Below, in pieces: positions 9,244 to 38,916 of a stretch of 64,000 bases of DNA. Each line of letters opens with the position of its first letter. Position 1 is the first letter of the stretch. The DNA lies in IMG/VR virus record IMGVR_UViG_3300010280_000442, positions 1-64,000 of that record. One strand, given 5' to 3'. The notes below the pieces were generated by a model, which made no database searches, was not told the DNA's origin, and saw only the letters and a program-made list of their open reading frames with translations. A program made the translations under genes and the position numbers. The DNA is from a virus (lineage: Duplodnaviria; Heunggongvirae; Uroviricota; Caudoviricetes).

Positions 9244-9295
9244 AAGTGTGGCTCCTTTCCTTCCAGATTCCCCGTGGGTTCCCCCTTGGGGTAGT

Positions 9296-9335
9296 CCTAT
9301 ATTACCGTCCTGTCCCGAAATAGCAAGCAAATTGT
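9296..9335 (-). promoter_or_regulatory. copy of the conserved phage promoter unit (TTGCTA-N17-TAATAT) upstream of recombinase 3
   Basis: Plus strand reads TATATTACCGTCCTGTCCCGAAATAGCAAG. Reverse complement gives TTGCTA, 17 nt, TAATAT, matching the family repeated 41-52 kb. Confidence 0.45.
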
Positions 9336-9500
9336 GGTAGGTTCTGCTCAGAAATATCGGAGAAAACAGGCGTCTTAAATTGTGAATAAAGCACAACTGA
9401 GGTGCGTTGCCCTTCCTTGTAAAAAAAGGCGGCTGTGCAGCCGTCCGGCCACACAGCCTTTCCCCAAATGCATACTACAGTATCTCTGTTCCCCGCAGTA

Positions 9501-24100: not shown

Positions 24101-26763
24101 GCATTCCAGATTTCAGAGACTTTCGTCTGGATCGCTGTTAGCGCATTGCCGATCAGTATCTGGATCGCCTGCCAGATGGTTTCAAACAGATACCGGAATG
24201 CCTCCAGCAACGGCGAAATCGTGCTGTAGATTGCATTCCATACTGTGGTGATTGTCGTCTGGATTGCTGTCATAACGGTAGAGATCGCCGTGCTGATCGC
24301 ATTCCATACCGTGCTTACTGTTGTCTGGATTGTATTTAAAACGGCAGAGACCGCCGTGGAAATGGCTGTCCATACCGTAGAAATGGTATTCTGGATCGTA
24401 CCCATCACGGAGGTTACCGCCCCGCTGATGGCGCTCCAAATGGTTGTAAACGTGGTCTGGATGGCTGTCAATATCGTGGTAAAGAAACTGCTGACCGCAT
24501 TCCACACAGTCGTTGCAACGCTCTGGATGCCTGTAAGCACACCCGAGAAAAAGCTGCTGATGCCGTTCCAGACTCCCTCGAAGAAGGTTTTGATACTGCT
24601 CCACACACTGTTCCAATCCGTACCGAACCAGCCGAGGAATACGTCCACGACCCCCTTTAACGTATCAAGCACTGTAGACAGTGTGCTTTTAATGAATTCC
24701 CATGCGCCGGAGAATATCTGCTTCACGCCGTCCCATGCTCCCTGCCAGTCCCCGGTAAATACGCCGATAAACACAGAGAGCAGCCCGGACAGGGTGTTCA
24801 GTACCACGCTCAGCACGTTGGAGATAACCTGGAACGCCCCTTCAAAAACAGGGGCCAACACCGAGCAGAAACCGTTCCATACCGCTTTCAGCACATCGGT
24901 GACGGACTGGAAGTCAAATCCCAGCGAATTCAGCTTGTCTGTGATTTCCTGGGCAAATGTCGCAAACGTTTCCTTGATGCCGTTCCATATCTCCGTGATA
25001 GCTGTACGGAATTCTTCGTTGGTGTTCCACAGCGTCATAAACGCCGCCACCAGCGTCCCGATGACTGCCACTGCCGCTACTACCGGCGCCGATATCCCGC
25101 CGAGCGCCGCACCGAGCTTCCCAAGTAATCCGGATGTGCTTCCTACCTTTGTACCAAGCGCCGCTATTTTTGTCCCCAGGGACGCAAACGCTTTCATGGT
25201 ACTTCCTGTTACCGTGTTGATCTTTCCGAGTATGACAAGCGCCGGCCCCAGCGCAGCCACAAACAGCCCGATCTGGATAATGGTCTGTCTTGTCCCCTCA
25301 TCCATGCTGTTGAGTTTATCTACGAAAGCCTGCACCTTCTCCACCACAGATTTAACCATGGGCAGTAAAGCCTCACCAAAAGAAATAGCCAGCCCTTCTA
25401 TGGCTGACTTTAAAATGGTGATCTGTCCGTTTAGGTTATTCAGCTGGGTATCCGCCATCTGCTGGGCGGCGCCGCCGCTGTTGGTAATGGACTGCTGGAG
25501 GTCATCCCAGGTGTTGCCGGTGTTGGCAAGCAGGGCGTTTACAGAGGCAAGGTCAGTCTTATTGAAGATGGTGGAGATGATGTTGTCCTTCTCCGCCGAG
25601 GTCATCCCGTCGAGGCTGGTGTTCAGATCGCCCAGGATTTCGTTCAGGGAGCGCATGTTTCCCTCGGAATCGTATACCTGTAGTCCCAGGTCCTCCATAC
25701 AGCCCGCAGCCGTATCCGTAGGCGACTGGAGGGACAGGATCACGTTGCGCAGATGGGTGCCGCCCTCCGCCCCTTTGATGCCGTTATTGGCGAGGATACC
25801 AAGAGCCGTGTTCAGCTCCGCCGTACCACCCTTGATGGATTTCGCAGTCGCGCCGATTTTCAGGATGCCTTCGCCCAGCTGTGCAACAGAAGTATTGGTA
25901 GAAGACGCCGTTTTCGCCATTTGGTCTACCATCTTATCCGCCTCATCGGTTTCCATACCGAGGGCGGACATGGCGTCCGTCACCATATCCGATGCGGAGG
26001 CAAGGTCGATACTGCCCGCCGCCGCAAGGTTCAGGACAGTCGGGAGTGTATCCGCCATCTGCTGTGTGTCATAGCCCGCCAACGCAAGGTAATTTAATGC
26101 CTCAGCGCACTCAGACGCAGAGAACGCTGTGGTGGCGCCCATCTCCTTGGCAAGGTCAGACAGGGCGTCCATCGTGTTTACCGTCTCGCCGTTCAGCTCG
26201 GACATATCATCCGATGTGATGCCCATCGTGGCCTGCACCTGGCTCATGGCAGACTCGAAAGATGCCGCAGTTGTTACAGCAGCTGTTCCAAGGGCCGTCA
26301 CGGCGGCAGAAGCCACGGACACCTTCTTGCCCACATTGGTAATGGAAGTGCCGGCCTTTTCCAGCTTATCCCCGACTTCGGAAATCTTAAGAAGGGCAGT
26401 GTTACATTTCGCCGCCTGGGATTCCAGCGACTTTAAGGCTTCCTCCGTCGCAACGATCTCACGCTGGAGGGAATCGTACTGCTCCTGCGTGATCTCTCCC
26501 TTCTGAAGCTGCTCGTTTGCCTGTTCCGCAGCGGTCTTTAAGGTTGTGAGTTTTTCCTTTGTCGCTTCAATCTCCTGCGTCAGCAGTTTCTGCTTCTGGG
26601 TAAGGAGCTGCACATTGGTCGGGTCGAGCTTTAAGAGTTTCTCCACGTCCTTTAGCTGCGTCTGGGTGGATTTGATATTGGAATTGACATCTTTTAACGC
26701 AGACGAGAGTTTTGTGGTATCGCCGCCAATCTCGACGGTTATTCCAGCGATTCGTGAAGCCAT
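21190..26763 (-). CDS. tail tape measure protein (TMP), 1857 aa
   Basis: N-terminal coiled coil (MASRIAGITVEIGGDTTKLSSALKDVNSNIKSTQ...). Very long runs of degenerate ISTVWNAISTAVS-type repeats. Lies between the tail assembly chaperone (TAC) and Dit. Confidence 0.85.
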   Translation of the reverse strand: MASRIAGITVEIGGDTTKLSSALKDVNSNIKSTQTQLKDVEKLLKLDPTNVQLLTQKQKLLTQEIEATKEKLTTLKTAAEQANEQLQKGEITQEQYDSLQREIVATEEALKSLESQAAKCNTALLKISEVGDKLEKAGTSITNVGKKVSVASAAVTALGTAAVTTAASFESAMSQVQATMGITSDDMSELNGETVNTMDALSDLAKEMGATTAFSASECAEALNYLALAGYDTQQMADTLPTVLNLAAAGSIDLASASDMVTDAMSALGMETDEADKMVDQMAKTASSTNTSVAQLGEGILKIGATAKSIKGGTAELNTALGILANNGIKGAEGGTHLRNVILSLQSPTDTAAGCMEDLGLQVYDSEGNMRSLNEILGDLNTSLDGMTSAEKDNIISTIFNKTDLASVNALLANTGNTWDDLQQSITNSGGAAQQMADTQLNNLNGQITILKSAIEGLAISFGEALLPMVKSVVEKVQAFVDKLNSMDEGTRQTIIQIGLFVAALGPALVILGKINTVTGSTMKAFASLGTKIAALGTKVGSTSGLLGKLGAALGGISAPVVAAVAVIGTLVAAFMTLWNTNEEFRTAITEIWNGIKETFATFAQEITDKLNSLGFDFQSVTDVLKAVWNGFCSVLAPVFEGAFQVISNVLSVVLNTLSGLLSVFIGVFTGDWQGAWDGVKQIFSGAWEFIKSTLSTVLDTLKGVVDVFLGWFGTDWNSVWSSIKTFFEGVWNGISSFFSGVLTGIQSVATTVWNAVSSFFTTILTAIQTTFTTIWSAISGAVTSVMGTIQNTISTVWTAISTAVSAVLNTIQTTVSTVWNAISTAISTVMTAIQTTITTVWNAIYSTISPLLEAFRYLFETIWQAIQILIGNALTAIQTKVSEIWNAIVAFLTPLLQSIQTTMQTVWTAISTAISTVLTAIQTAVSTAWNAISTTVTTVMTALQTALAVAWGAISTAISAVLTAIQTTVTTAWNAIKTQISSVMAGIQSTVSSIWNSIKTAVSTVVNGIKSVVTSGFNSAKSAVSTAMNGIKSNVSSMWDSVKSAVSSKISGIKSTIQTGFNSAVSYIKGLASSAFNWGADIINGIVNGIKSCISSVTSAVTSVADKIRSVLHFSVPDEGPLTDFESWMPDFMNGLAEGITGNISVVTEAANGLAESLSNAITSSMQGVQTAFTQSWNAITDTVTSASSGIGTALDGAWNGLKTSTAAAWESIRSTVAEKVQAVVQTVGTSATGMNSGLSTVWSSVSQTATMAWANIRSNVSASWQGIQSAVTTSASGMKSALDSVWNGVEASAKKAWSAVTGNLDTDWSAIQTNVSKAANAVKSAVDSSWDSVKSSTASQWSSISSTITASLTAMKNNNSTAMGVIKNTIANTWTAVNSNTSTSWSSIKNTVIAAMSEIKTAVSNGMNSLKTTVSSGLNAISESFRSTFSSLVSDAYTWGADICRQMAAGIAANKEAVLAQARELASEIDDIIGFSVPETGPLSNADSYMPDFMQLLADGISGNSGSVVQEVTQLASEMAKVLKTSTTEMASDTSSGWEKIRNTVSTAWNVIKSTSSSSLVGLAASVSGGWASVLSYTVTHWRSIKSEIQSVWNAIKSVTSTVLPVIKNVVSSAWNGIKTVTTTVWNGIKNGITTVWNSVKSVTSSAMNSLKSVVSSAVAGIKSSFGSLSSLASSAYSWGKDICSQMAAGVKSAASSVINAAKSLASKIKSLIHFSVPDTGPLSDADEYMPDFMDLLAKGISGNAGSVLDKVKAMTGKIREMMHGLGIEELPEFDFPEFRLPDIGSLGLDGLRLPELALAGGGTTTTTNNNQRTINMGGIHLTVNGYNVRDDDALASMVANKINEMLDEDGSVFK

Positions 26764-27110: not shown

Positions 27111-28043
27111 ATGTCGAAACCTTTTCTTACATACGAACAGCAAATTCAAAAGCTGACCGTAGATAAAAAACTAATAATTAATGATACTGTCTCGGCAAAG
27201 GCAGCCTTGGAAAATATCGGCTATTTTTCTCTCATTGGAGGCTATAAAACTCCTTTTATTAACCCAATGACCAGAATTTATGAACATACCGCATTTGAAG
27301 ATATTTTTGCGCTCTATACGTTTGACCGAGGTTTAAGAGAACTGACTTTCAAATATCTGTGCGAAATTGAGCAGAAAATACGTCAGCTGATTTCTTACAG
27401 TTTTTGCAGCCAGCACGGAGAACAACAAGTTTTTTATTTAACCTCTTCCTGTTATAACCTTACCAAAAAGAATACAAGAGATATCACGAAGCTCATTTCA
27501 ATTCTGGACTACCATGCGAATAAGAACACTGAACATGCGTATTTGGTTCATCAGCGTAAAGTATACAATAATGTACCTCTATGGGTTGTGATAAATGCAC
27601 TTACATTTGGACAAAGTTCTAAATTCTATAGCTTATTGCCATATAACATGCAGAGCAATATTAGCAAATCCTATGACCATATAAACGAAAAGAATTTAGA
27701 ACGTTATCTAAAAAACCTAACTCTTTTCCGCAATGTATGCGCCCACAATGAACGCCTTTATAATTTCCGTCTGCAGGTAGATTTTCCTGATACAATTCTC
27801 CACTTGAAAATGGGAATTCCTAAAGTCGGAATACAATATACACAAGGGAAACGGGACTATTTTGGCCTTGTTATCGCTTTCCGCTATCTTTTATCTAAAG
27901 AAAGCTTCAAGGATTATAAAAAATCATTAACCCGCTTAATTAATTCGTACTGTAAAACCAGTACTCGTATTTCAAAAAGTAAGCTTCTAGACACAATGGG
28001 ACTCCCTGAAAACTGGGAAAACATCACCCGATATAAACTGTAA
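27111..28043 (+). CDS. Abi (abortive infection) family protein, Abi_2 / AbiD-AbiF-like
   Basis: Conserved C-terminal FRNVCAHNERLYN motif and the general Abi_2 layout. AT-rich gene, far lower GC than the phage backbone. Opposite strand to the structural genes. Confidence 0.8.
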   Translation: MSKPFLTYEQQIQKLTVDKKLIINDTVSAKAALENIGYFSLIGGYKTPFINPMTRIYEHTAFEDIFALYTFDRGLRELTFKYLCEIEQKIRQLISYSFCSQHGEQQVFYLTSSCYNLTKKNTRDITKLISILDYHANKNTEHAYLVHQRKVYNNVPLWVVINALTFGQSSKFYSLLPYNMQSNISKSYDHINEKNLERYLKNLTLFRNVCAHNERLYNFRLQVDFPDTILHLKMGIPKVGIQYTQGKRDYFGLVIAFRYLLSKESFKDYKKSLTRLINSYCKTSTRISKSKLLDTMGLPENWENITRYKL

Positions 28044-28085
28044 CGGCACGTTGCCCCGCCCAACCAAATGAAAAAGCTGGGTGGG
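28044..28085 (+). terminator. intrinsic terminator (hairpin CCCACCC...GCTGGGTGGGG then ATTTTTC), copy 1
   Basis: Immediately after the Abi stop. The same hairpin recurs at 29059 and 30811. Confidence 0.6.
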
Positions 28086-28207
28086 GATTTTTCATGCCGT
28101 CAGAAAACGTCAAAGTCGTGCTGAGAAGCGAGATCTTTGTATGGGTAAGAATCGTTCATGCTCTCAGTGAACAGATCGTTGACCAAACCGATAGTGAGCA
28201 GATCGAG
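28050..28207 (+). repeat. direct repeat R1 (truncated, about 158 bp): copy of the 3' region downstream of the tail assembly chaperone gene, including the terminator
   Basis: Near-identical by eye to 29063-29215 and 30818-30975 (CCAACCAAATGAAAAAGCTGGGTGGGGATTTTTCATGCC...GATCGAGGTC). Confidence 0.8.
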
Positions 28208-28333
28208 GTCATAGAAATAATAAAAAAATCCTGTTAACTGCGCATAAAATATTACGACGCACTATTTCAAAATCAGTCATTCATTTGCAAAACCAACGCA
28301 ATAAATTTATCAGTTTTTTCGCTGATAAACCTG

Positions 28334-28362
28334 TTGATATTTTATAAAATTCGTGCTATACT
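28334..28362 (+). promoter_or_regulatory. promoter TTGATA-N17-TATACT with upstream palindrome TTATCAG-N9-CTGATAA (candidate Phd operator)
   Basis: Read from sequence just upstream of the phd RBS GAAAGGAG. Confidence 0.45.
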
Positions 28363-28382
28363 ATAGCCAGAGAAAGGAGTTG

Positions 28383-28712
28383 ATGATCATGGGTTCTGTT
28401 TTAAGTGCAATTACTAACACTATTCCGATTTCCCTCTTCAACCGCGGTCTTGCTGGTAAGATTTTTGAAGAAGTCAAGCAGTGCGGTGCAAAGGTTGTTA
28501 TGAAAAACAACACCGCCGAATGCGTTTTGCTTTCTCCCGATGAATATGTGCGCTTGATGGATGAAATAAATGACGCTCGCCTGCTGGCTATCGCCACTGA
28601 GCGTATGGCGCATTACGATCCTTCCACTGTCATCTCTGGTGACGAAATGAACCGCCGTCTTGGTATTACCGATGAAGACCTTGCCGGTTATGACGAGGTG
28701 GAACTCGAATGA
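28383..28712 (+). CDS. Phd/YefM-family type II antitoxin
   Basis: AKVVMKNNTAECVLLSPDEYVRLMDE matches Phd/YefM. Start at ATG 5 nt after the RBS; ATG codons at 28353 and 28389 are alternatives. 4-nt overlap with the toxin gene. Confidence 0.75.
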   Translation: MIMGSVLSAITNTIPISLFNRGLAGKIFEEVKQCGAKVVMKNNTAECVLLSPDEYVRLMDEINDARLLAIATERMAHYDPSTVISGDEMNRRLGITDEDLAGYDEVELE

Positions 28713-29044
28713 ACTGGAAACTTGCCTATCTACCTGAAGCTGAAAAAGACCTGAAAGCCCTGGATGGCAGCCAGCGCATCCTTGTCCTAAAAGCAATTAA
28801 GAAGGTTCAGCAAAACCCTCTGCCTGCCGATGAGAACGGATATGGAAAACCTCTTGGGAACCAGAACGGAACAAGTCTTGTCGGTTTTCTCAAAATCAAA
28901 CTCAAATCTGCCGGATTGCGTGTTGTTTACAAACTTCAGCGCACTGAAAATGCAATGCTCGTCATTGTAATAGGTGTCAGAGCTGATGAAGAGGTCTATG
29001 AGATTGCTCAGAAACGCTCCATTAAACACAATCTTCTTGACTGA
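28709..29044 (+). CDS. RelE/ParE-family type II toxin
   Basis: MNWKLAYLPEAEKDLKALDGSQRILVLKAIKKVQQNP...LRVVYKL...MLVIVIGVRADEEVY matches the RelE/StbE fold. ATGA overlap with phd. Confidence 0.8.
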   Translation: MNWKLAYLPEAEKDLKALDGSQRILVLKAIKKVQQNPLPADENGYGKPLGNQNGTSLVGFLKIKLKSAGLRVVYKLQRTENAMLVIVIGVRADEEVYEIAQKRSIKHNLLD

Positions 29045-29054
29045 TAAGCCAAGA

Positions 29055-29485
29055 ATTCCCCCACCCAACCAAATGAAAAAGCTGGGTGGGGATTTTTCAT
29101 GCCATCAGAAAACGTCAAAGTCATGCTGAGAAGCCAGGTCTTTGTATGGATAAGAGTCATTTATGCTCTCAGTGAACAGATCGTTGACCAAACCGATAGT
29201 GAGCAGATCGAGGTCTCGGATACTGATGCCTAACTGGACACATCGAAGCAGGAACAGCGGCGTTGTCATTTCACGCTCACTTTTGCGAGGTTTTTTTCGC
29301 ATCCACCTGCGTCTGCACGTTCAGCCCCCACAGGTCGATCAGTTCAGGAAGGATCTGATAAATACTGAAAGTATTGAACTGCTCCAGCCACTCGTCCGGC
29401 TCAGACGGTACTCCCTTGGGGTCCGCGTGCTTCGCCATGATATAAGCGATATTTTCAAAGAGCTCCAGACTGAATAGGACTTTTC
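29055..29485 (+). repeat. direct repeat R2 (about 430 bp): copy of the C-terminal ~72 codons of the tail assembly chaperone, the frameshift-extension region and the terminator
   Basis: Aligns base-for-base by eye with 30810-31235 apart from a few mismatches and a T7 run (29291-29297) where R3 has T8. Begins with terminator hairpin 29059-29098. Confidence 0.85.
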
Positions 29486-29581
29486 TTTGGACTTTTTGAA
29501 ATTAACAAGCAGAATTTCATCCGAATCATTCACTTTTTCCAATTTTATGAATTTTGCTCCTTACTATATTTTCAGAAAAAC

Positions 29582-29610
29582 TTGATTTTTTGAATTTTCT
29601 ATGCTATAAT
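29582..29610 (+). promoter_or_regulatory. promoter TTGATT-N17-TATAAT for the Fic cassette
   Basis: CTTGATTTTTTGAATTTTCTATGCTATAATTC, 50 nt upstream of RBS GGAGAAAGGAG. Confidence 0.45.
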
Positions 29611-29659
29611 TCTTTTCGTAATTTCAAGTTCCGCACTTCGGCGGAGAAAGGAGTATCAT

Positions 29660-30805
29660 ATGGAAAACCGTGCAGGTACTTTTATTAGTAACCTTTCCGG
29701 AGAAATGGCGTATAAGTCCTTTCGTCCTTCACCCTTGCCGCCCACCCCTCCTGTTGATATAGACCCTGATATGCTTGCTAAATTAATTGAAGCAAATAAA
29801 GAACTTTCTTATCTTGAAGGAGTGTCTTCCAGAATTCCGAATATTGACCTCTTTGTTTCCATGTATGTCCGCAAAGAGGCTCTGATGTCTTCCCAAATTG
29901 AAGGTACACAATGTACCTTGGATGACATTCTTGACCCTTTGATGGATGCAAATGCCAATCGAGATGTGTCTGATGTCGTCAACTATATTCGGGCTACGGA
30001 ATATGCAATAGAGAGGCTTCAAACTCTTCCTCTTTGCAACCGTTTAATCAAGGAAATACACGCTGTCCTTATGCAGGGAGTGCGTGGACAGGAAAAAAGC
30101 CCCGGTGAATTTCGCTATTCCCAAAACTGGATTGGAGGTCAGGGAAGCACGCTTAAAAATGCACGCTATATTCCCCCGAATCCGATTGACATGGTTGAGT
30201 CAATGTCTGATCTGGAGAAATATATCAACAGCGATGACACGCTTGACCCATTAATCCAAGCGGCACTTATCCATTATCAATTTGAAACAACACACCCTTT
30301 CCTGGACGGCAACGGCCGCGTTGGAAGGCTTTTAATTACACTGTTTCTGATGGAAAAGAAAATTCTTACCACTCCGGCTCTGTATATTTCTTACTACTTG
30401 AAAATGAACCGTGTAGAATACTATGACCGGATGACCCAAGTCCGCCGCACCGGTGATTACGAACAATGGATTAAATTCTTTCTGCAGGCTTTCTCGGAAT
30501 CTGCAAAAGATGCGGTTGAAACAATAAATATGCTCTCCGCACTCCATGACCAAAGCGTCTCTTCCTTTGATGATTTGTCAAAACGGCAGAGGAATTCGAT
30601 TATGAAGGTATTTACGTACCTTGAAACGAACCCAATTATTGACATTCAGAAAACTGCAACGGCTCTGAATCTTTCTTATAACACAGTTGCAAAAGCGGTT
30701 TCGATTCTGATGGATAAAGGGATTCTGTCACAGACGGACAAATCCGGTAAAGCAAAAATATATTCTTATACTGCTTACCTTGACATTCTCCGTAAAGACA
30801 CATAA
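29660..30805 (+). CDS. Fic/DOC family protein (AMPylase-type; HPFx[DE]GNGR motif) with C-terminal winged-helix
   Basis: Core Fic motif HPFLDGNGRVGR. C-terminal HTH-like region (SYNTVAKAVSILMDKGIL). Low-GC gene. Confidence 0.8.
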   Translation: MENRAGTFISNLSGEMAYKSFRPSPLPPTPPVDIDPDMLAKLIEANKELSYLEGVSSRIPNIDLFVSMYVRKEALMSSQIEGTQCTLDDILDPLMDANANRDVSDVVNYIRATEYAIERLQTLPLCNRLIKEIHAVLMQGVRGQEKSPGEFRYSQNWIGGQGSTLKNARYIPPNPIDMVESMSDLEKYINSDDTLDPLIQAALIHYQFETTHPFLDGNGRVGRLLITLFLMEKKILTTPALYISYYLKMNRVEYYDRMTQVRRTGDYEQWIKFFLQAFSESAKDAVETINMLSALHDQSVSSFDDLSKRQRNSIMKVFTYLETNPIIDIQKTATALNLSYNTVAKAVSILMDKGILSQTDKSGKAKIYSYTAYLDILRKDT

Positions 30806-30809
30806 CCAT

Positions 30810-31235
30810 TCCCCACTCAGCCAAATGAAAAAGCTGGGTGGGGATTTTTCATGCCGTCAGAAAACGTCAAAGTCGTGCTGAGAAGCGAGATCTTTGTATG
30901 GGTAAGAATCGTTCATGCTTTCTGTGAACAGGTCGTTGACCAAACCGATAGTGAGCAGATCGAGGTCTCGGATACTGATGCCTAACTGGACACACCGAAG
31001 CAGGAACAGCGGCGTTGTCATTTCACGCTCACTTTTGCGAGGTTTTTTTTCGCATCCACCTGCGTCTGCACGTTCAGCCCCCACAGGTCGATCAGTTCAG
31101 GAAGAATCTGATAAATACTGAAGGTGTTGAACTGCTCCAGCCACTCGTCCGGCTCAGACGGTACTCCCTTGGGGTCCGCGTGTTTCGCCATAATATAAGC
31201 GATATTTTCAAAGAGCTCCAGACTGAATAGGTCGA
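30810..31235 (+). repeat. direct repeat R3 (master copy, contiguous with the intact tail assembly chaperone gene)
   Basis: Same sequence as R2. Begins with terminator hairpin 30811-30850 and runs into the TAC coding sequence. Confidence 0.85.
30857..31084 (-). other. -1 programmed-frameshift extension of the tail assembly chaperone (gpGT-like), slippery run A8 (plus-strand T8 at 31042-31049)
   Basis: In the TAC frame the sequence reads GCG AAA AAA AAC (an A_AAA_AAC heptamer). The -1 frame is open for 58 further codons (KKPRKSEREMTTPLF...DFDVF) and ends just before the terminator hairpin. Confidence 0.5.
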
Positions 31236-31398
31236 GGCTGGATTCGTCCTCGTCGTTGTCACCCACACTCTTTTCCAACTGTCTCAAGTCCTTATAAATA
31301 TCTCTGCCAAATTTCAGCCGGTACATTCTCGGAACCGCCGCACTCGCACGGAACTCCACTTCCTGCCCGTCGATCTCAATCTTTTTTGTCACTGCCAT
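31018..31398 (-). CDS. tail assembly chaperone (gpG-like)
   Basis: Small acidic protein between the expected major-tail-protein position and the tape measure gene. Carries a canonical slippery site and overlapping -1 ORF at its 3' end. Start at ATG MAVTKK with RBS GGAGGA. Confidence 0.7.
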   Translation of the reverse strand: MAVTKKIEIDGQEVEFRASAAVPRMYRLKFGRDIYKDLRQLEKSVGDNDEDESSLDLFSLELFENIAYIMAKHADPKGVPSEPDEWLEQFNTFSIYQILPELIDLWGLNVQTQVDAKKNLAKVSVK

Positions 31399-31458
31399 GA
31401 TAAAATCCTCCATTTCATGTAAGGACAGGGTGCTGTCCCTGCCCTGCGTTTCTGTCCC

Positions 31459-32226
31459 TTATTCCTCAGTATCAATGCTGACCAGCGAATTGCCTCCCGT
31501 CACAGTCGGGAGCTTCCCGTCCCATTTCTGGATCTTCTGGTATTCGATCAGCTCCTCAGACAGGCTTTCCGCAATCTTACGGTTCGCCTCCGCCTGCGCA
31601 TCTGCCGTGATGGCCGCCTTCTCTGCTTCCGCTTCTGCGTTGGTGATCGCCACCCGCTTATCCGCTTCCGCCTTCGCAATCGCCGCAGCGTTCTCAATCT
31701 CCTGCTGCTGGGCCTTCTGTTGGGCGATAGACCTCTGCTGGATCGCCTCGTTGTAGGCGTCCTCAAAGTCCATGTCATTGATGGTTACCTTATTGATATA
31801 CACCGTTTCTTCGCCGTACTTCTGCTCAAGCGATGTGTTCAGCTTTTCCTGCACGAGAGGCTCGATCTTTGCACGGTTGGTGACTTCCTCCGGTCCCAGT
31901 TCCACCATTGCCGATTTGACTGCGGAGGCCACAAGGCTGTCCGTGACCAGATTTTTGGTATCAGACACATTAGCATAAATCCATACGGAACGCTCCGGCA
32001 TGATCTGGTAAGTGACCGTGATATCTGCGGCGTACACCGGGGTCTTGTCGGATGCCTCGCCCCAAACCTGCACTTCCACCGTCTTATCCTGCTGTTTGTT
32101 GTTTACCTTATGGATGCTCTCAACAAAGGGAACCGTGAAAATAAGCCTTCCGCTGGGGATGGTCTCCTCCTGGACCTGACCGAAGGAGGTCTTCACGCCG
32201 GTATACCCGGTGGGGATGATCGTCAT
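31459..32226 (-). CDS. SPFH / band-7 (prohibitin-HflK/C-like) domain protein lacking an N-terminal membrane anchor
   Basis: SPFH core (IPSGRLIFTVPFVESIHKVNNKQQ...YQIMPERSVWIYANV...) followed by an Ala/Glu-rich coiled coil (QQKAQQQEIENAAAIAKAEADKRVAITNAEAEAEKAAITADAQAEANRKIAE). Start ATG overlaps the stop of the upstream remnant (ATGA). Confidence 0.8.
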   Translation of the reverse strand: MTIIPTGYTGVKTSFGQVQEETIPSGRLIFTVPFVESIHKVNNKQQDKTVEVQVWGEASDKTPVYAADITVTYQIMPERSVWIYANVSDTKNLVTDSLVASAVKSAMVELGPEEVTNRAKIEPLVQEKLNTSLEQKYGEETVYINKVTINDMDFEDAYNEAIQQRSIAQQKAQQQEIENAAAIAKAEADKRVAITNAEAEAEKAAITADAQAEANRKIAESLSEELIEYQKIQKWDGKLPTVTGGNSLVSIDTEE

Positions 32227-32378
32227 TGATTCTCCCCGCTGGGGTCGATGGATAGTGACACGGCGCCGGGCATACGCACCGGCTTGGCGTAGGTCACATT
32301 GCCGTCATCGTCAAAGGCCGCCTTTGCGTAATGGCAGTTTTTAAGGCCGAATTTGACCTTGTTGGATTTATTAGGCAT
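32223..32378 (-). pseudogene. 51-codon N-terminal remnant of a phi13/TP901-type major tail protein
   Basis: Translation MPNKSNKVKFGLKNCHYAKAAFDDDGNVTYAKPVRMPGAVSLSIDPSGENQ resembles the conserved N-terminus of Phage_TTP_1 major tail proteins. Strong RBS AAAGGAGA. Stops after 51 codons where a tube protein of about 190 aa is expected. Confidence 0.45.
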
Positions 32379-32418
32379 AATCAAGCGTCTCCTTTCAAAA
32401 AATAATGGCCGCCTGGGA

Positions 32419-32736
32419 TCAGACGGTCATCTCATACAAAACTTCGTACATCTTTTCATCCTCGATCCACACCTCGGATTTGTGGTAGAAGATTTCATGC
32501 TCCTTCAGCACAGCCTCTACCCTTTCCTCCAATTCCGGGTCTTTGAGGTCTGTATATACCTCAATGTCCAGATTGTTGAAGGCATGGTAGACGGTATTGT
32601 CCGCCCCAAACTCCACCTCTTCCGGGTAAAGGAAGCAGACAAACGGCGGGTCCGGGCTTTCCCCCTCGGCAAAATGGTCATAGGCGTATGGGATGCCTAT
32701 CGCTTCCATCAGTGCGAGTACATCATCGTGTGTCAT
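32419..32736 (-). CDS. hypothetical tail-completion / tail-terminator-position protein
   Basis: 105-aa acidic ORF immediately upstream of the major-tail-protein position; synteny only. Confidence 0.4.
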   Translation of the reverse strand: MTHDDVLALMEAIGIPYAYDHFAEGESPDPPFVCFLYPEEVEFGADNTVYHAFNNLDIEVYTDLKDPELEERVEAVLKEHEIFYHKSEVWIEDEKMYEVLYEMTV

Positions 32737-33853: not shown

Positions 33854-35065
33854 TTAAGCGCCAGCCTTCATCTGAAGGACCTGCACCGCCTCCGGCAGAA
33901 TCAGCTTGCCATCCACACGCTGGGTGGTCAGGAAGCCAACCTGGTCAGTACGGGCATACAGCTCGTTCAGGCGGCGGAAGGTGCGGCTCTGGCGATCAGC
34001 AACCCAGTAATAGCTGTAGTCACCGAATACCAGCGCTTTGTTGCCCGCCGCAAGCGCCGGCATGAAGCTGCTGGTACGGATAGGCTTATTCAGGATGGTG
34101 TCCGGCTTGCCCACATCCAGACCCGGCTTCCAGATATAGTTGTCGTTGTTGTCCTTTAAGAGCATCAGCTGCAAAAGCAGCGCCTCATTACACAGGAAGG
34201 ACGCCTTCTTGCGGTACGGGGATTTCAGGCTGTAATACAGCTTGAACACCTCATCAAAGGTCACAGCCGTTGCAGACGCGGCGGTCACACCGACCTGGGC
34301 GCAGGCGTCGTCCAGAAGGCCCAGGGGCTTGCCGATGCCGTCGCCGGTAATGAAAGCCTTCTCCTCGGCATTGCCCATGCGCACACCAAAGCGGCGGGCG
34401 ATATAGCTGGCGAGGTCGAAAGCGGAATCGTTCAGCAGCTCGTTAGAGATCTTGATCATCGTCCCCAGCTTATAAGCAGACAGAGTCGTCTGGCCGAAAG
34501 CGGCATCACTCTCCGGAATCTCCTCGCCCTCATCAATCCACTCGGCAAGGCCGGTGTCCTGGGCAATCGGGATCTTGCGGGTGCCGGAACTGGTGTGAAT
34601 GATGGTGGCAAGGCCACGGAAGATATTGTTCTCCTCCAGGGCTTCCACCAGCTTGCGCTCAAACTCGTCCGGGACCGTGAAGCCGCCCTCAGTGTCCACG
34701 CCCACAGAAAGAGCGTTCTGGATCTCGCCGTAGCTGCCACGGCTACGGATCATGTTCCAAAACGCCTCGGAATACTCCGGTGTGCCGGTCGGGCTGGCGT
34801 TCTTCGCCGCCACAGGCGCATTGGCCTTCGGCTTGCTTGTGATGGGCTGGGAGGTCGGCTGGGAAAGCTGTGCGTCCAGCTGCGCCTGCTGCTCCAGGCG
34901 TTCAATCTCAAGCCCCAGGTCTTTAACCTCCTGCGCCATCTTGTTGTACTGCTCCACCGCGTCGGCGGCCACAAGGCCGTTCTCACCGCGGTGCTTCTCC
35001 AGGAACGCCTTGGTCTGCTCCCAGAGGGTGTTACGCTTCGTGCGCAGTTCCAAAATCTTACTCAT
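33854..35065 (-). CDS. major capsid protein, HK97 family
   Basis: N-terminal coiled coil (KILELRTKRNTLWEQTKAFLEKH) typical of HK97-type MCP. Core GGFTVPDEF...KIPIAQDTGLAEW. Start at ATG MSKILEL with RBS GGAGGT. Confidence 0.85.
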   Translation of the reverse strand: MSKILELRTKRNTLWEQTKAFLEKHRGENGLVAADAVEQYNKMAQEVKDLGLEIERLEQQAQLDAQLSQPTSQPITSKPKANAPVAAKNASPTGTPEYSEAFWNMIRSRGSYGEIQNALSVGVDTEGGFTVPDEFERKLVEALEENNIFRGLATIIHTSSGTRKIPIAQDTGLAEWIDEGEEIPESDAAFGQTTLSAYKLGTMIKISNELLNDSAFDLASYIARRFGVRMGNAEEKAFITGDGIGKPLGLLDDACAQVGVTAASATAVTFDEVFKLYYSLKSPYRKKASFLCNEALLLQLMLLKDNNDNYIWKPGLDVGKPDTILNKPIRTSSFMPALAAGNKALVFGDYSYYWVADRQSRTFRRLNELYARTDQVGFLTTQRVDGKLILPEAVQVLQMKAGA

Positions 35066-35133
35066 AGTGGTTACCTCCATAAAATTTGCATTTCGGTTAA
35101 TTGATGTGTATATGAAAACAGCCGGAGTGCCAA

Positions 35134-36114
35134 TCATTTCAGGCAGTCCAGCTGGTTCATCAAAATTTCATACGGCACAGAGCCGTCTGCGGTTTTACCG
35201 TCCATACCGATCGCGGGCGGCACGTCCATCTTTTCGGACAGTTCTGACAGGATATCCGTCAGAGACCGGAATTTGCCGTTTTCATCCACAAGGCTGATGG
35301 AATGCTCTTCCAGCACTCCCGATACTGTGGTCTGCGCCGCAACAGGCTTCTCCGGCATATTCCCTGCACCCAGACGGTTGAGGATCGTAAGCCCCATCTG
35401 CTTTGTGGAATACATCAGCGGTTCCAAAGCAAAGCTGTCCAGATGGACGCCTTTCTTTTTCTCATTGTCGTTATCCCCGTCATCATCGTCACCACCGCCC
35501 TCGCCAGGCTCTTCCTTGGGTTCTCCTTCCGGCCCGTCCGCCTTCTTTTTCTTGGGAGCGAAGGGATTCTCCGCATTAAAAAGAATCTCATCCACAAAGC
35601 CCAGGTCATAGGCTTTCTTAGCGTTGAGCCAGGTTTCATTGCTCATGAGCGCTGCGATTCGGTTGCGCGACAGATGGGATTTCGTCATATAAGCGTTGAT
35701 GATGCTCTCTTTTACCTCATTCAACACATCGATGGCATGCTCCATGTCCTTAGACGTACCCTTGGCGATAGTGGACGGATCATGGATCATGAGTAACCCG
35801 GTCGGGCTGATCGCTACATGGTCTCCAGCCATGGCAATGACGGATGCCGCTGATGCCACCACGGAATCGATCTTAACCGTGACCTTACCCTTATAATCCC
35901 GGAGCATCGTGTAGATTTCGCTCGCGGCGAACACGTTCCCACCGGGACTATTCAGCCATAGGATCACGTCCCCCTCCCCGGCATTCAGCTCATCCCGGAA
36001 TGCTTTAGGCGTTACACCGTCACTGCCCCATGTGGACTCCTCATCGATTGGTCCAACCATGCGCAGGACACGCTCGCCCGCGTCATTCCTGATCCAGTTC
36101 CAGAACTTCTTCAT
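35134..36114 (-). CDS. ClpP-like (S14) prohead maturation protease with C-terminal scaffold-like acidic region
   Basis: ClpP signature LWLNSPGGNVFAASEIYTMLRDYKGKVTVKIDSVVASAASVIAMAGDHVAISPTGLLMIHDP. Acidic EEPGEGGGDDDDGDNDNEKKK linker. Confidence 0.8.
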   Translation of the reverse strand: MKKFWNWIRNDAGERVLRMVGPIDEESTWGSDGVTPKAFRDELNAGEGDVILWLNSPGGNVFAASEIYTMLRDYKGKVTVKIDSVVASAASVIAMAGDHVAISPTGLLMIHDPSTIAKGTSKDMEHAIDVLNEVKESIINAYMTKSHLSRNRIAALMSNETWLNAKKAYDLGFVDEILFNAENPFAPKKKKADGPEGEPKEEPGEGGGDDDDGDNDNEKKKGVHLDSFALEPLMYSTKQMGLTILNRLGAGNMPEKPVAAQTTVSGVLEEHSISLVDENGKFRSLTDILSELSEKMDVPPAIGMDGKTADGSVPYEILMNQLDCLK

Positions 36115-36171: not shown

Positions 36172-37287
36172 TCACTCATACCGCATAAAATCCTTTCCAT
36201 AGATTTCATTGCACCAATCAAAAATGCGCCCCATACCGAGCCCGGATCTACTGGGCACCCAGATCTGTCTGGGATTCCAGCATTCCTTATCGGTAAGAAG
36301 CGCATCATATTTAGGGTTTTCTATCCATTGCCCTCCGCCAATGCAGTATTCATATTGTTTTGGATGCGTATGCATTAACCTTTGGAAACGTGTTTCGCCA
36401 CGCTCCCTGTGGAAACCATACGCACAAAAAATGCACCCGGTCCGGTCACAGCCGGTACAATGAAATTTCTGATTCTTTTCATCACGTACCACTTCCCCGT
36501 ATACGGAACAGATAGGAACATTATATCGGACAATATATTCCAGCACGTCTTGCTCTGTCCAAAATGACATAGGATTGCTGATTGGCTTTTTCATATAGAA
36601 ACCATTGCACCCATTCCGAATCCACTGTTGTCTCCGCAACCTGCTTTCTGAGGCGAGTTGGCCAGTGATCGCATAACGATGTTCCTGCCGGGCATACCGA
36701 TTAGCAGGACGTTTTTTCATAGCGCTGCAGCATTGTGCAGAAATTCGGAACGGCAAATAATACAGCGGCTTCCACTTTGAAAAATCCATCTGACTCCCCG
36801 GTGACTTTACATCACCGTTCAGCCTCCTCATCCGATAAGCGTATTTTCCATTTGCCGTACTGATTCTGGCTTGGCCGATACACTCGGATACTTCTTTTCC
36901 TATAATCGGGTATCCATATACAGAAACCACATCCCGAAATGATAAACGGTCCGTGTGAAGATGACCATTTCTCTTGCCCGCCTTTCCCCACAAGGGATAG
37001 ATTGTTACCACATTCTCAAAGGATTGTGCGAACTTCCTGATCTCTGGGTATTCAAGGCCGGTATCAACAAACACAGCCGGAATGTCAGGACACGTCCTCT
37101 GGACAAGGTCGAGAAGAACCCGACTGTCCTTACCTCCACTGAAGCTCAAGTACACGCTACCGCCATAATGGAAATACCATTCTAAAATCCTTGTCTGGGT
37201 AATCATAATTTTTCTTTCAAGTGGCAGCCTTTGCAGCTCTTTCAGACGTCCCGCATCATGAATTCCGGTATCATAATCATTACTCAT
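36172..37287 (-). CDS. PAPS-reductase-family (PP-loop ATP pyrophosphatase) protein with C-terminal Cys cluster
   Basis: PP-loop SFSGGKDS. C-terminal CTGCDRTGCIFCAYG. Inserted between the portal and prohead protease genes. Confidence 0.8.
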   Translation of the reverse strand: MSNDYDTGIHDAGRLKELQRLPLERKIMITQTRILEWYFHYGGSVYLSFSGGKDSRVLLDLVQRTCPDIPAVFVDTGLEYPEIRKFAQSFENVVTIYPLWGKAGKRNGHLHTDRLSFRDVVSVYGYPIIGKEVSECIGQARISTANGKYAYRMRRLNGDVKSPGSQMDFSKWKPLYYLPFRISAQCCSAMKKRPANRYARQEHRYAITGQLASESRLRRQQWIRNGCNGFYMKKPISNPMSFWTEQDVLEYIVRYNVPICSVYGEVVRDEKNQKFHCTGCDRTGCIFCAYGFHRERGETRFQRLMHTHPKQYEYCIGGGQWIENPKYDALLTDKECWNPRQIWVPSRSGLGMGRIFDWCNEIYGKDFMRYE

Positions 37288-37288
37288 T

Positions 37289-38725
37289 TCATAACCTGCT
37301 TTCTCCCATCAAGTTACTTCTCCGTTGCTTCTCTCTGTTATTTGTTTTTTCATTTTCATCTGGCGGGCGCTCTTTTTGGGGGTTGTCAGAGGTATTTTCA
37401 TTAGACTCATCCGCCTCTGACTTCTGCCCCTCCTCGCCAAGCTGCTTATTAACCTGCTGTTGGAAATATGCCGCCCCGATATCCTTCAACTGTACATAAG
37501 AACCGTTCGCAACGAACACATTTCCACCCTGCTCATCCGGGATCGGGTCCATATTCTCCAGCCTGCGGATGTCGTTAGGGCATAGGAACCCATTCGCAAA
37601 TCCCGTGGCATAACCGTTCATGCGGCTCTGGTAGTCGCCACGAAGCAGACCGTCCACGTTGAATTTTGGGAAATACGCATCCTGTTCTTCTTCCAGGAGC
37701 AGGTCCTTCATGATCCCCTGCTCAAAACGGATGATCCATGGGGTCAGCGTGTGCTGGACGAAATCAATCGACTGGTGTTCGATATTACTGTAGGTGGCGT
37801 GTTCCAGATCCTGCACCAGATGGGGCGGGACACGGAAAATGCGGCAGATCTCATCCACCGTGAACTTCCGGGTCTCAAGGAACTGGCTGTCTTCCGGCGG
37901 AAGAGAAATCGCTTTGTAAGTCATGCCCTCTTCCAGGACACACACCTTATGGGCGTTGTTCGCCCCGCCATATACGGCTGTCCAGTTTTCACGGATCTTC
38001 GCCGGGTCTTTCAGTACCCCCGGATGCTCCAGGACACCGCTGGGCTGCGCTCCGTTTCTAAAGAATGCCGCCCCGTATTTCTCCACTGCCAACGTCGTGC
38101 CGAGGCTGTTCTTCATCATGGCTATAGGGGAGAAACCAACAAGACCATTGAAGCCCAGCCCTGGGATATGGAACACATCCTCATTCCTCAGATAGATATC
38201 CTTGTTGTTCTCACCCGGCACCTCATCCGTATAGGCGTGGTAGATATAATAAATTTCGCCGGATTCGTCACGGTCGACCTCCACGTTTTCCGGGGACAGC
38301 GGATACAGCCCCAGGATGCCATTCTTTCCATCCCTGACAATCTGTGCATAGGCGTTGCCCCACAGCAAAAGGTGGGTCATCATGGTTTCCCGGAAGACAA
38401 AGGACGTCATCTCAGGATTCGGCTGGCGGTACAGCACCTTATAAAGCGGATGGTCTATTGCTTTTTCTTTCTCCCCGTTTTTCCCTGCGTACCGGTATAA
38501 GTGCAGCGGCAGCCCCGCGATGGACTCCGCCAGCAAGCGGACACAGGCGTACACCGTGGAGATCTGCATGGCGGATTTCTCGTCCACCCGTTCCCCGCTG
38601 TCTGCCCGCCCGAAAATGAACATCTGCCCGCTGTCCCGGACGTTGTCGGTAATGTCCGGCATCTTCGGCCTGTTTCCAGGCGCGTCCCTCGGCTTCGCAA
38701 AGCCGATCCAGTCTAAAAATCCCAT
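37289..38725 (-). CDS. portal protein (HK97/SPP1-type)
   Basis: 478 aa, directly downstream of TerL. Portal-like N-terminus (QISTVYACVRLLAESIAGLPLHLYRY). Confidence 0.8.
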   Translation of the reverse strand: MGFLDWIGFAKPRDAPGNRPKMPDITDNVRDSGQMFIFGRADSGERVDEKSAMQISTVYACVRLLAESIAGLPLHLYRYAGKNGEKEKAIDHPLYKVLYRQPNPEMTSFVFRETMMTHLLLWGNAYAQIVRDGKNGILGLYPLSPENVEVDRDESGEIYYIYHAYTDEVPGENNKDIYLRNEDVFHIPGLGFNGLVGFSPIAMMKNSLGTTLAVEKYGAAFFRNGAQPSGVLEHPGVLKDPAKIRENWTAVYGGANNAHKVCVLEEGMTYKAISLPPEDSQFLETRKFTVDEICRIFRVPPHLVQDLEHATYSNIEHQSIDFVQHTLTPWIIRFEQGIMKDLLLEEEQDAYFPKFNVDGLLRGDYQSRMNGYATGFANGFLCPNDIRRLENMDPIPDEQGGNVFVANGSYVQLKDIGAAYFQQQVNKQLGEEGQKSEADESNENTSDNPQKERPPDENEKTNNREKQRRSNLMGESRL

Positions 38726-38730
38726 CGTGT

Positions 38731-38916
38731 TTACCTCCTGTACGTTTTCTGGTTGCCATGGTCATCCGTGATGGTCACGACACTCCCAGTCAAAAACCAG
38801 CATTTTTGTGATGCCCACACCGCATCCAGTGTGGTGTTCTCATTTCCTATCACCGCATAAAAACGATGGTCATGGGTAACAGTAAAATATCTCTCCATCC
38901 TGTTCTCCTCCATCAA
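38731..38916 (-). CDS. hypothetical small protein between TerL and portal
   Basis: 61-aa ORF, overlaps the TerL stop by 4 nt. Confidence 0.35.
   Translation of the reverse strand: MMEENRMERYFTVTHDHRFYAVIGNENTTLDAVWASQKCWFLTGSVVTITDDHGNQKTYRR

What the first reader, a model, noticed from the sequence alone, without database searches (positions are those of the whole stretch)
31459..32378. Major tail protein reduced to a 51-codon N-terminal stub that is translationally coupled to an SPFH/band-7 protein
At the position where a siphovirus tail-tube gene is expected (after the gp10-like gene and the terminator-position gene, before TAC) there is only a short ORF (32223-32378, strong RBS AAAGGAGA). 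Its product MPNKSNKVKFGLKNCHYAKAAFDDDGNVTYAKPVRMPGAVSLSIDPSGE looks like the conserved N-terminus of phi13/TP901-type major tail proteins. It stops after 51 codons, and its stop overlaps (ATGA) the start of a 255-aa SPFH/band-7 domain protein that has no membrane anchor. Either the tube gene has been largely replaced by a moron, making the prophage tail-defective, or an SPFH-family protein is being made from the tube-gene expression signals. Soluble SPFH proteins in a phage tail operon are unusual.
Basis: partly seen in the sequence, partly recalled or inferred. Interest (0 to 1): 0.65.

Follow-up and report, generated by a model that had tools for sequence, protein, structure and literature searches.

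The report
Deletion scar in prophage tail-tube gene
The short tail-tube "stub" joined to an anchorless SPFH gene is what a single 606-base deletion left of two neighbouring genes that are both intact in related phages, so this is an ordinary, recently crippled prophage and not a new tail design.

Summary
A 51-codon ORF (32223-32378, minus strand) matches the N-terminus of phi13-type major tail proteins, and its stop overlaps (ATGA) the start of a 255-aa SPFH protein with no membrane anchor.

The interpretation needs correcting. The closest relative found (L157, a Clostridia MAG, about 95% identical) has a complete 224-aa tail tube gene. Twenty bases downstream sits a 276-aa SPFH gene with an N-terminal transmembrane anchor, followed by the tail assembly chaperone. 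Aligned to L157, the window has one clean 606-nt gap. The gap removes tube codons 51-224, the intergenic RBS and SPFH codons 1-21, which are the anchor.

The SPFH "start" is the native internal Met22. The ATGA overlap appears because native TCA-ATG-ACG is read in the tube frame as CAA-TGA.

Of 205 related loci, 202 have a full tube gene. 105 carry full SPFH, 90 carry none and 7 carry broken SPFH. Only the window's own allele, seen in two assemblies, has the stub. The 64-kb window holds no other tube gene.

Low dN/dS against L157 (0.03-0.31) suggests the deletion is recent. Verdict: a tail-defective prophage carrying a deletion scar. Low interest.

The parts
32223..32378 (-). Remnant of the major tail (tube) protein gene. 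It keeps codons 1-50 of a ~224-codon phi13/TIGR01603-type gene, followed by one out-of-context codon (CAA) and a TGA supplied by SPFH-gene sequence.
   Evidence: PHROG 88 E=7e-11. TIGR01603 positions 1-42 of 190, 23.7 bits. 92% amino-acid identity to residues 1-51 of the intact 224-aa L157 protein. DNA alignment A1.
32388..32395 (-). Native ribosome-binding site (AAAGGAGA) of the tube gene, conserved in L157.
   Evidence: Sequence. Aligned with GGAAAGGAGA of L157 in alignment A1.
32228..32229 (-). Deletion junction. Tube-gene sequence ends at ...GGGGAGAAT (T at 32229) and SPFH-gene sequence resumes at CAATGACGATC (C at 32228). 606 nt are missing relative to L157, with at most 1 nt (T) of microhomology.
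   Evidence: Pairwise alignment A1, columns 194-799 gapped in the window. Codon-level view against L004 and L052.
31459..32226 (-). 5'-truncated SPFH/Band-7 gene, corresponding to codons 22-276 of the ancestral gene. It lacks its own start, its RBS and the N-terminal transmembrane anchor. The ATG at 32226 is the native internal Met22.
   Evidence: PF01145 61 bits. PHROG 200 positions 102-350 of 379. L157 and L004 homologues begin MKKR(V/I)L(M/I)IP...(TM).... Hydropathy 1.11 versus 2.75.
32419..32736 (-). Tail terminator gene. It is the intact upstream neighbour and was used as the anchor to find related loci.
   Evidence: PHROG 78 E=1.5e-17. Related loci.
31018..31413 (-). Gene at the tail-assembly-chaperone position (PHROG 709). 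It is the intact downstream neighbour, with an overlapping T-like extension ORF at 30857-31084.
   Evidence: PHROG 709 E=1e-38. Conserved directly after the tube or SPFH gene in relatives.

Best explanation
The stub plus anchorless SPFH is the scar of one recent 606-bp deletion in a prophage of a gut Clostridia bacterium.

The ancestral late operon read: tail terminator, major tail protein (about 224 aa, phi13/TIGR01603 type), HflC/prohibitin-like SPFH protein (276 aa, N-terminal signal-anchor helix), tail assembly chaperone.

A deletion with essentially no junction homology removed three things. These are tube codons 51 to the stop, the 20-nt intergenic region holding the SPFH RBS, and SPFH codons 1-21, which are the membrane anchor. 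The tube reading frame now runs into SPFH sequence and stops at once (CAA TGA). That stop overlaps the native internal Met22 codon of SPFH, which produces the ATGA.

Inferred consequences:
- A 50-residue fragment cannot form the tube protein's fold, and no other tube gene is present. The prophage therefore cannot build a tail tube or make infectious tailed particles unless a tube protein is supplied in trans.
- If the SPFH remnant is translated at all, it cannot be inserted in the membrane, where SPFH proteins act. It is most likely non-functional.

Shown directly: the deletion, its boundaries, the intact arrangement in relatives, and the absence of another tube gene in the window. Inferred: tail deficiency, loss of SPFH function, and that the event is recent.
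For: 1. L157 (JAJPXP010000070.1) has an intact 224-aa tube gene (TIGR01603, 128.7 bits, positions 1-189 of 190). A TM-anchored SPFH gene follows it, then TAC. L157 is 88.7-99.5% identical in DNA to the window gene by gene.

2. Alignment A1 shows collinear flanks and a single 606-nt gap in the window.

3. A survey of 205 related loci from IMG/VR and GTDB genomes found 202 with a full-length tube gene. Of these, 105 have full SPFH, 90 have none and 7 have broken SPFH. The truncated tube gene is found only in L001 and L002, which are the window's own allele.

4. The anchor is missing only in the window: hydropathy 1.11 versus 2.75.

5. tblastn with three full-length tube proteins finds only the stub in the 64-kb window. 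PHROG scans of the other tail-region ORFs give Dit, Tal-like, holin, endolysin and recombinases but no tube protein.

6. dN/dS between the window and L157 is 0.03-0.31 for all genes, including 0.05 for the SPFH remnant and 0.06 for the stub. No decay has built up since the inactivation.

7. The same junction appears in two assemblies made by different pipelines, ENA ERZ27241765 and Logan SRR5190122.
Against: - No experimental data exist on particle production.
- Only 64 kb of a 390-kb contig was examined. A second prophage elsewhere in the genome could supply a compatible tube protein in trans.
- The two assemblies carrying the junction may come from the same sample, so their independence is unproven.
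- The stub's GGGGAG lies 5 nt upstream of the SPFH ATG and could act as a chance Shine-Dalgarno. Together with the ATGA overlap, this means the remnant may well be translated. Loss of SPFH function is inferred from the missing anchor only.
- The exact ancestor is not available. The stub region of L157 is 88.7% identical, so microhomology at the breakpoints cannot be settled to the base.
Confidence: 0.88

Rival explanations
1. Functional rearrangement. The deletion put an anchorless, soluble SPFH protein under the strong tube-gene translation signals, and the host or prophage now uses this product. One possible use is interference with SPFH cages of incoming related phages or with host FtsH-type partners.
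For: The ORF is intact for 255 codons. It has a chance GGAG 5 nt upstream and ATGA coupling to a well-initiated stub. dN/dS against L157 is 0.05.
Against: - The low dN/dS is shared by every gene, including the dead stub (0.06). It reflects history before the deletion, not selection on the new form.
- The allele is confined to one lineage seen in two assemblies. It is absent from IMG/VR and JGI metagenome contigs.
- SPFH genes at this locus are often lost or broken in relatives: 90 loci have none, 7 have broken copies, and L157 has a nonsense codon. The gene therefore looks dispensable.
- The closest solved SPFH relatives (prohibitin, HflC, QmcA) are, from general knowledge, membrane-anchored assemblies.
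Confidence: 0.05
2. Assembly artefact or minority deletion variant. The real dominant genome has an intact tube gene, and the junction arose from a misassembly or a rare subpopulation.
For: The source is a metagenome assembly (k141 contig names). Only two contigs carry the allele.
Against: - The identical junction was recovered by two different assembly pipelines (ENA and Logan), with 100% identity over 1381 nt.
- No repeat at the breakpoints could mislead an assembler, since microhomology is at most 1 nt.
- The flanks are perfectly collinear.
Confidence: 0.05
3. Moron replacement. An incoming SPFH gene was inserted and displaced most of the tube gene.
For: SPFH presence varies among related phages (105 with, 90 without), so it is an accessory gene acquired at some point in the group's history.
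Against: The closest relative and 104 other loci carry SPFH next to a complete tube gene. The window's SPFH is itself truncated at its 5' end by the same event. SPFH acquisition therefore came well before the loss of the tube gene and is unrelated to it.
Confidence: 0.01
4. New tube architecture. The 51-aa peptide, or the SPFH protein, builds the tail tube.
For: None beyond position in the operon.
Against: All 202 other related loci keep a full-length tube gene whether or not SPFH is present. The SPFH homologues are membrane-anchored HflC/prohibitin-like proteins.
Confidence: 0.01

Closest known systems
phi13-type major tail protein (NCBIfam TIGR01603 maj_tail_phi13; PHROG 88)
   Same: The stub aligns with the first ~42-48 profile positions. 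It occupies the canonical slot between tail terminator and tail assembly chaperone and keeps the native RBS and start.
   Different: Only 50 of about 224 codons remain. The score (23.7 bits) is below the family cutoff (35.2), and the rest of the domain is deleted. This is a gene remnant, not a family member in any functional sense.
Membrane-anchored SPFH/Band-7 proteins of the HflC / prohibitin / QmcA type (Pfam PF01145); phage family PHROG 200
   Same: A full SPFH domain followed by an Ala/Glu/Gln-rich C-terminal helical region. The best PDB sequence matches are prohibitin-2, HflC and QmcA (E about 1e-6). The intact homologues have the HflC-like N-terminal signal-anchor.
   Different: The window copy lacks residues 1-21 and so has no anchor. 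No HflK-like partner or FtsH gene lies next to it. The phage family has no tested function, and PHROG labels it only 'lipoprotein' or 'other'.
Defective (cryptic) prophages inactivated by internal deletions
   Same: A single deletion removes an essential virion gene while the rest of the prophage still looks intact. The sister lineage L157 shows independent decay, with a truncated capsid gene and an SPFH nonsense codon.
   Different: Nothing unusual. The only special feature is that the junction happens to create an ATGA overlap that mimics translational coupling.
Phage morons / accessory genes inside late operons
   Same: Presence of the SPFH gene varies among otherwise syntenic relatives (105 with, 90 without). 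It always lies at the same tube-TAC junction.
   Different: Classic morons have their own promoter or terminator, and none was detected here above chance. In L157 the SPFH gene lies 20 nt after the tube gene, so it is probably co-transcribed with the late genes.

Membership tests
Major tail protein, phi13 type (TIGR01603 / PHROG 88) | Whole-protein score above the curated cutoff (35.2 bits) | tested here: not met
   The stub scores 23.7 bits, E=3.3e-5. The intact L157 orthologue scores 128.7 bits.
Major tail protein, phi13 type (TIGR01603 / PHROG 88) | Coverage of the full ~190-position tube domain | tested here: not met
   Only profile positions 1-42 of 190 and 16-63 of 291 of PHROG 88 are present. 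The rest is deleted.
Major tail protein, phi13 type (TIGR01603 / PHROG 88) | Position between the tail terminator and the tail assembly chaperone | tested here: met
   Gene order. The same order holds in 200+ relatives.
SPFH / Band 7 (PF01145) | SPFH domain above the Pfam gathering score | tested here: met
   61.1 bits against 23.6, profile positions 1-174 of 176.
SPFH / Band 7 (HflC/prohibitin-like membrane scaffolds) | N-terminal membrane anchor | tested here: not met
   The window protein has a maximum 19-residue hydropathy of 1.11. L157 and L004 homologues reach 2.75 at residues 7-25. The anchor codons lie inside the deletion.
SPFH / Band 7 (HflC/prohibitin-like membrane scaffolds) | Assembly into large membrane-bound oligomeric cages, with a partner such as FtsH | not testable with these tools
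   Only weak sequence similarity to HflC, prohibitin and QmcA chains (E about 1e-6). No partner gene is adjacent.
Deletion-derived pseudogene (prophage decay) | An intact orthologue in a close relative, with collinear flanks and a single clean gap | tested here: met
   Alignment A1 shows a 606-nt gap with conserved flanks. L157 genes are 88.7-99.5% identical.
Deletion-derived pseudogene (prophage decay) | The arrangement is restricted to one lineage while relatives keep the intact gene | tested here: met
   202 of 205 loci have a full tube gene. The junction is found only in L001 and L002. It has no exact match in IMG/VR or JGI metagenome contigs.
Moron (autonomously expressed accessory gene) | Own promoter and/or terminator flanking the gene | tested here: inconclusive
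   Consensus scans found nothing above shuffled expectation near the SPFH gene in the window or in L157. The L157 intergenic spacer is only 20 nt. Clostridial promoters may not be well modelled by these scans.
Moron (autonomously expressed accessory gene) | Variable presence among syntenic relatives | tested here: met
   105 loci with SPFH, 90 without and 7 with remnants.
Known anti-phage defence proteins (PADLOC) | Match of the SPFH protein to any defence-system model | tested here: not met
   No PADLOC hit for the window SPFH or the full-length L004 SPFH.

The most novel reading that the evidence does not exclude
Two novel readings are not excluded.

1. The anchorless SPFH remnant is translated, through a chance GGAG and ATGA coupling to the stub, and has acquired a use in the lysogen. 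One example would be poisoning the SPFH assemblies of superinfecting related phages. In that case the tube-less prophage would be kept as a domesticated defence island, since it also carries AbiD, SoFic and a toxin-antitoxin pair.

2. Separately, an HflC-like membrane-anchored SPFH gene sits immediately after the tube gene in about half of a large group of gut-Clostridia siphophages. It is an uncharacterised accessory function that is probably expressed late, and it could affect lysis timing, FtsH control or superinfection exclusion.
Probability: 0.05. Interest if true: 0.45.

Novelty: already known. Interest (0 to 1): 0.12.

Why it matters
It matters little beyond annotation. This prophage should be scored as tail-defective, and the two ORFs should be annotated as remnants: a tube pseudogene and a 5'-truncated SPFH gene.

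It is also a useful caution. An ATGA overlap with a good RBS can be created by chance at a deletion junction and look like designed translational coupling.

The wider pattern is mildly useful background. A membrane-anchored HflC-like SPFH gene is a common accessory gene between the tube and chaperone genes of gut Clostridia phages, and its function is untested. That pattern is not what the finding claimed.

Tried and rejected
- Second tube gene in the window. tblastn with three full-length tube proteins returned only the stub. PHROG scans of ten other tail-, lysis- and integration-region ORFs found no tube protein.
- Same deletion junction elsewhere. The 24-mer had no exact match in JGI metagenome contigs or IMG/VR. 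A 32-mer from the start of the SPFH remnant (the Met22 region), meant to find the close lineage, also had no match in IMG/VR. The lineage is therefore rare in those collections.
- SPFH as a known defence protein. No PADLOC hit.
- SPFH in isolated phages. Only four weak or partial tblastn matches in INPHARED, the best at 51% identity in an unannotated human faecal phage contig.
- Literature. SPFH or band-7 genes are mentioned as accessory or moron genes in many phage genome papers. Nothing turned up on a tail-operon role (titles and abstracts only, no paper read in full).
- Own promoter or terminator for SPFH. Nothing above shuffled expectation.
- A -1 frameshift fusing the stub to SPFH. The SPFH frame is open upstream of the ATG. 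There is no slippery heptamer, however, and the deletion origin makes this reading unnecessary.
- The ~325-nt 'gap' between tube and TAC in SPFH-less relatives looked like another accessory gene. It is a C-terminal extension of the tube protein itself, which is 286 aa in L042.

Full report
**1. What is in the window**

The minus strand of 21-41 kb carries a siphovirus late operon. In order:
- terminase large subunit (38913-40544)
- portal (37289-38725)
- a PAPS-reductase-like gene (36172-37287)
- ClpP-type protease (35134-36114)
- HK97-type capsid (33854-35137)
- head-tail adaptor, head closure and gp10-like genes
- tail terminator (32419-32736, PHROG 78)
- the 51-codon ORF (32223-32378)
- the 255-codon SPFH ORF (31459-32226)
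- a gene at the tail-assembly-chaperone position (31018-31413, PHROG 709) with an overlapping T-like extension ORF
- about 4.2 kb of plus-strand cargo
- a 1857-aa ORF at the tape-measure position (21190-26763)
- Dit, a Tal-like protein, holin, endolysin and two large serine recombinases

The stub has AAAGGAGA upstream, its TGA overlaps the SPFH ATG as ATGA, and the SPFH protein has no hydrophobic segment. The stub matches tube-protein families only over their N-terminal ~45 positions. PHROG 88 gives E=7e-11. TIGR01603 gives 23.7 bits, below the 35.2 cutoff.

**2. What relatives have at this locus**

I used the tail terminator and the SPFH protein as anchors and collected 236 related loci from IMG/VR and GTDB genomes.

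Of these, 205 have enough downstream sequence to judge:
- 202 have a full-length tube gene.
- 105 of those also have a full 276-aa SPFH gene between tube and TAC.
- 90 have no SPFH; the tube gene is followed directly by TAC.
- 7 have a full tube gene with a broken or partial SPFH.

The only loci with a truncated tube gene next to SPFH are L001 and L002. These are the window's own allele, from ENA assembly ERZ27241765 and Logan assembly SRR5190122, and are 100% identical over the region.

SPFH-bearing relatives occur in genomes labelled Blautia, Clostridium fessum, Faecalibacterium, Lawsonibacter and Ruminococcus. The full-length SPFH proteins start with a signal-anchor helix, for example MKKRILIIPTLVILLILGILSVHIIPTGY in L004.

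**3. The deletion**

The closest relative is L157, the MAG 'Clostridia bacterium AH.12_9' (terminator 95% amino-acid identity; genes 88.7-99.5% DNA identity). It has a 224-aa tube gene that is a full TIGR01603 member (128.7 bits, positions 1-189 of 190). Twenty nucleotides later an SPFH gene begins MKKRVLMIPAILLLVIVLITSMTIIPTGY, and TAC follows.

The pairwise DNA alignment shows conserved flanks and one 606-nt gap in the window.
- The left breakpoint follows ...GGGGAGAAT (window 32229).
- The right breakpoint resumes at CAATGACGATC (window 32228).
- At most one base of microhomology is shared.

The gap removes tube codons 51-224 with the stop, the intergenic RBS and SPFH codons 1-21. The window's SPFH 'start' is therefore the native internal Met22. 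The stub's last codon and stop (CAA TGA) are SPFH sequence (TCA ATG ACG) read in the tube frame. The ATGA 'coupling' is a chance product of the junction.

**4. Consequences (inferred)**

Fifty N-terminal residues cannot form the tube protein's fold; this rests on general knowledge of siphovirus tube proteins. No other tube gene is detectable in the 64-kb window. The prophage should therefore be unable to assemble a tail tube.

The closest solved relatives of the SPFH protein are prohibitin, HflC and QmcA. From general knowledge, these work as membrane-anchored oligomeric cages. Without its anchor the remnant is probably inert. It may still be translated, because GGGGAG of the stub lies 5 nt upstream of its ATG.

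**5. Timing**

dN/dS between the window and L157 is 0.03-0.31 for every gene compared. That includes the stub (0.06) and the SPFH remnant (0.05). Nearly all divergence therefore accumulated while the genes were under purifying selection, and the deletion is recent.

The sister lineage is decaying independently. L157 has an in-frame stop at SPFH codon 135, and only the C-terminal 144 codons of its capsid gene remain.

**6. What the SPFH gene is in the intact phages**

It is an accessory gene whose presence varies among relatives. It is HflC/prohibitin-like by sequence and belongs to PHROG 200. It matches no PADLOC defence model.

No promoter or terminator of its own was detected, so it is probably co-expressed with the late tail genes. 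The MKKR-plus-helix N-terminus suggests an HflC-like N-in, C-out orientation. That topology is inferred from the positive-inside rule and was not tested.

Its function is unknown. Papers mention SPFH or band-7 genes as accessory genes in many phages (titles and abstracts only), so finding one in a phage is not new.

**7. Verdict**

The prophage is most likely tail-defective. However, SPFH did not replace the tube gene, and neither the soluble SPFH nor the coupling is a designed feature. This is an ordinary deletion scar in a recently inactivated prophage: low interest, no novelty.

The main caveats are three. There are no read-level data to rule out an assembly or minority-variant artefact. 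Only part of the host genome was inspected for a tube gene that could act in trans. No experiments are available.

Noticed in passing
window 27111-31231 (between the TAC gene and the 1857-aa tape-measure-position ORF): Three cargo units lie antisense to the tail operon. These are AbiD (27111-28043, PADLOC E=3e-63), a pair of small overlapping ORFs that I read as a Phd/RelE-like toxin-antitoxin pair from their sequences (28353-29044; no family search run, no PADLOC hit), and SoFic (29660-30805, PADLOC E=5e-119). They are separated by three direct copies of the TAC-3'/T-extension segment: 28054-28292 (69%), 29059-29478 and 30811-31231 (94-97%). The closest relative, L157, has only AbiD here. Across 176 related loci this gap ranges from 179 to 4258 nt (median 1216). 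The window's is the largest, and only the window's own allele (three copies) and L069 (two) have more than one T-segment copy. This looks like a defence-gene hotspot in which cassettes stacked up by recombination through the conserved TAC 3' end.
   Followed up: partly
L157:3498-4328 and L157:892-1326: The sister lineage is decaying independently. Its SPFH gene has an in-frame stop at codon 135. Only the last 144 codons of its capsid gene remain, and unrelated sequence lies upstream.
   Followed up: partly
L009, L033, L036, L056, L150, L154, L156 (IMG/VR loci): These loci have partial or broken SPFH genes next to an intact tube gene. Examples are residues 1-86 only in L009 and two separate matched pieces with an internal deletion in L036, L154 and L156. 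SPFH appears to be lost often in this phage group.
   Followed up: partly
window 36172-37287 (minus strand): A 371-aa PAPS-reductase-family gene (PF01507) sits between the portal and the prohead protease. It has weak similarity to BrxP and SspD models (PADLOC E=2e-12 and 1e-7). It may be a DNA-modification or anti-defence accessory gene inside the head module.
   Followed up: no
window 4482-6773 and 6856-9396 (minus strand): Two tandem large serine recombinases (763 and 846 aa, PHROG 95 E about 1e-100) lie at the probable prophage end, downstream of the lysis genes.
   Followed up: no
L042:5337-6197 and about 25 similar loci: In the SPFH-less subgroup the tube protein carries a ~95-aa C-terminal extension and is 286 aa in L042. 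Judged by eye from its sequence, the extension looks like an Ig- or cadherin-like decoration domain. It accounts for the ~325-nt 'gap' seen before the TAC gene.
   Followed up: partly
window 32409-32426 (minus strand): A terminator-like hairpin followed by CCATTATTTT sits between the tail terminator gene and the tube-gene RBS. It is conserved in L157 (2754-2771). It may be an attenuator or processing signal ahead of the highly expressed tube gene. The number of such hits in the region is not above the shuffled expectation.
   Followed up: no
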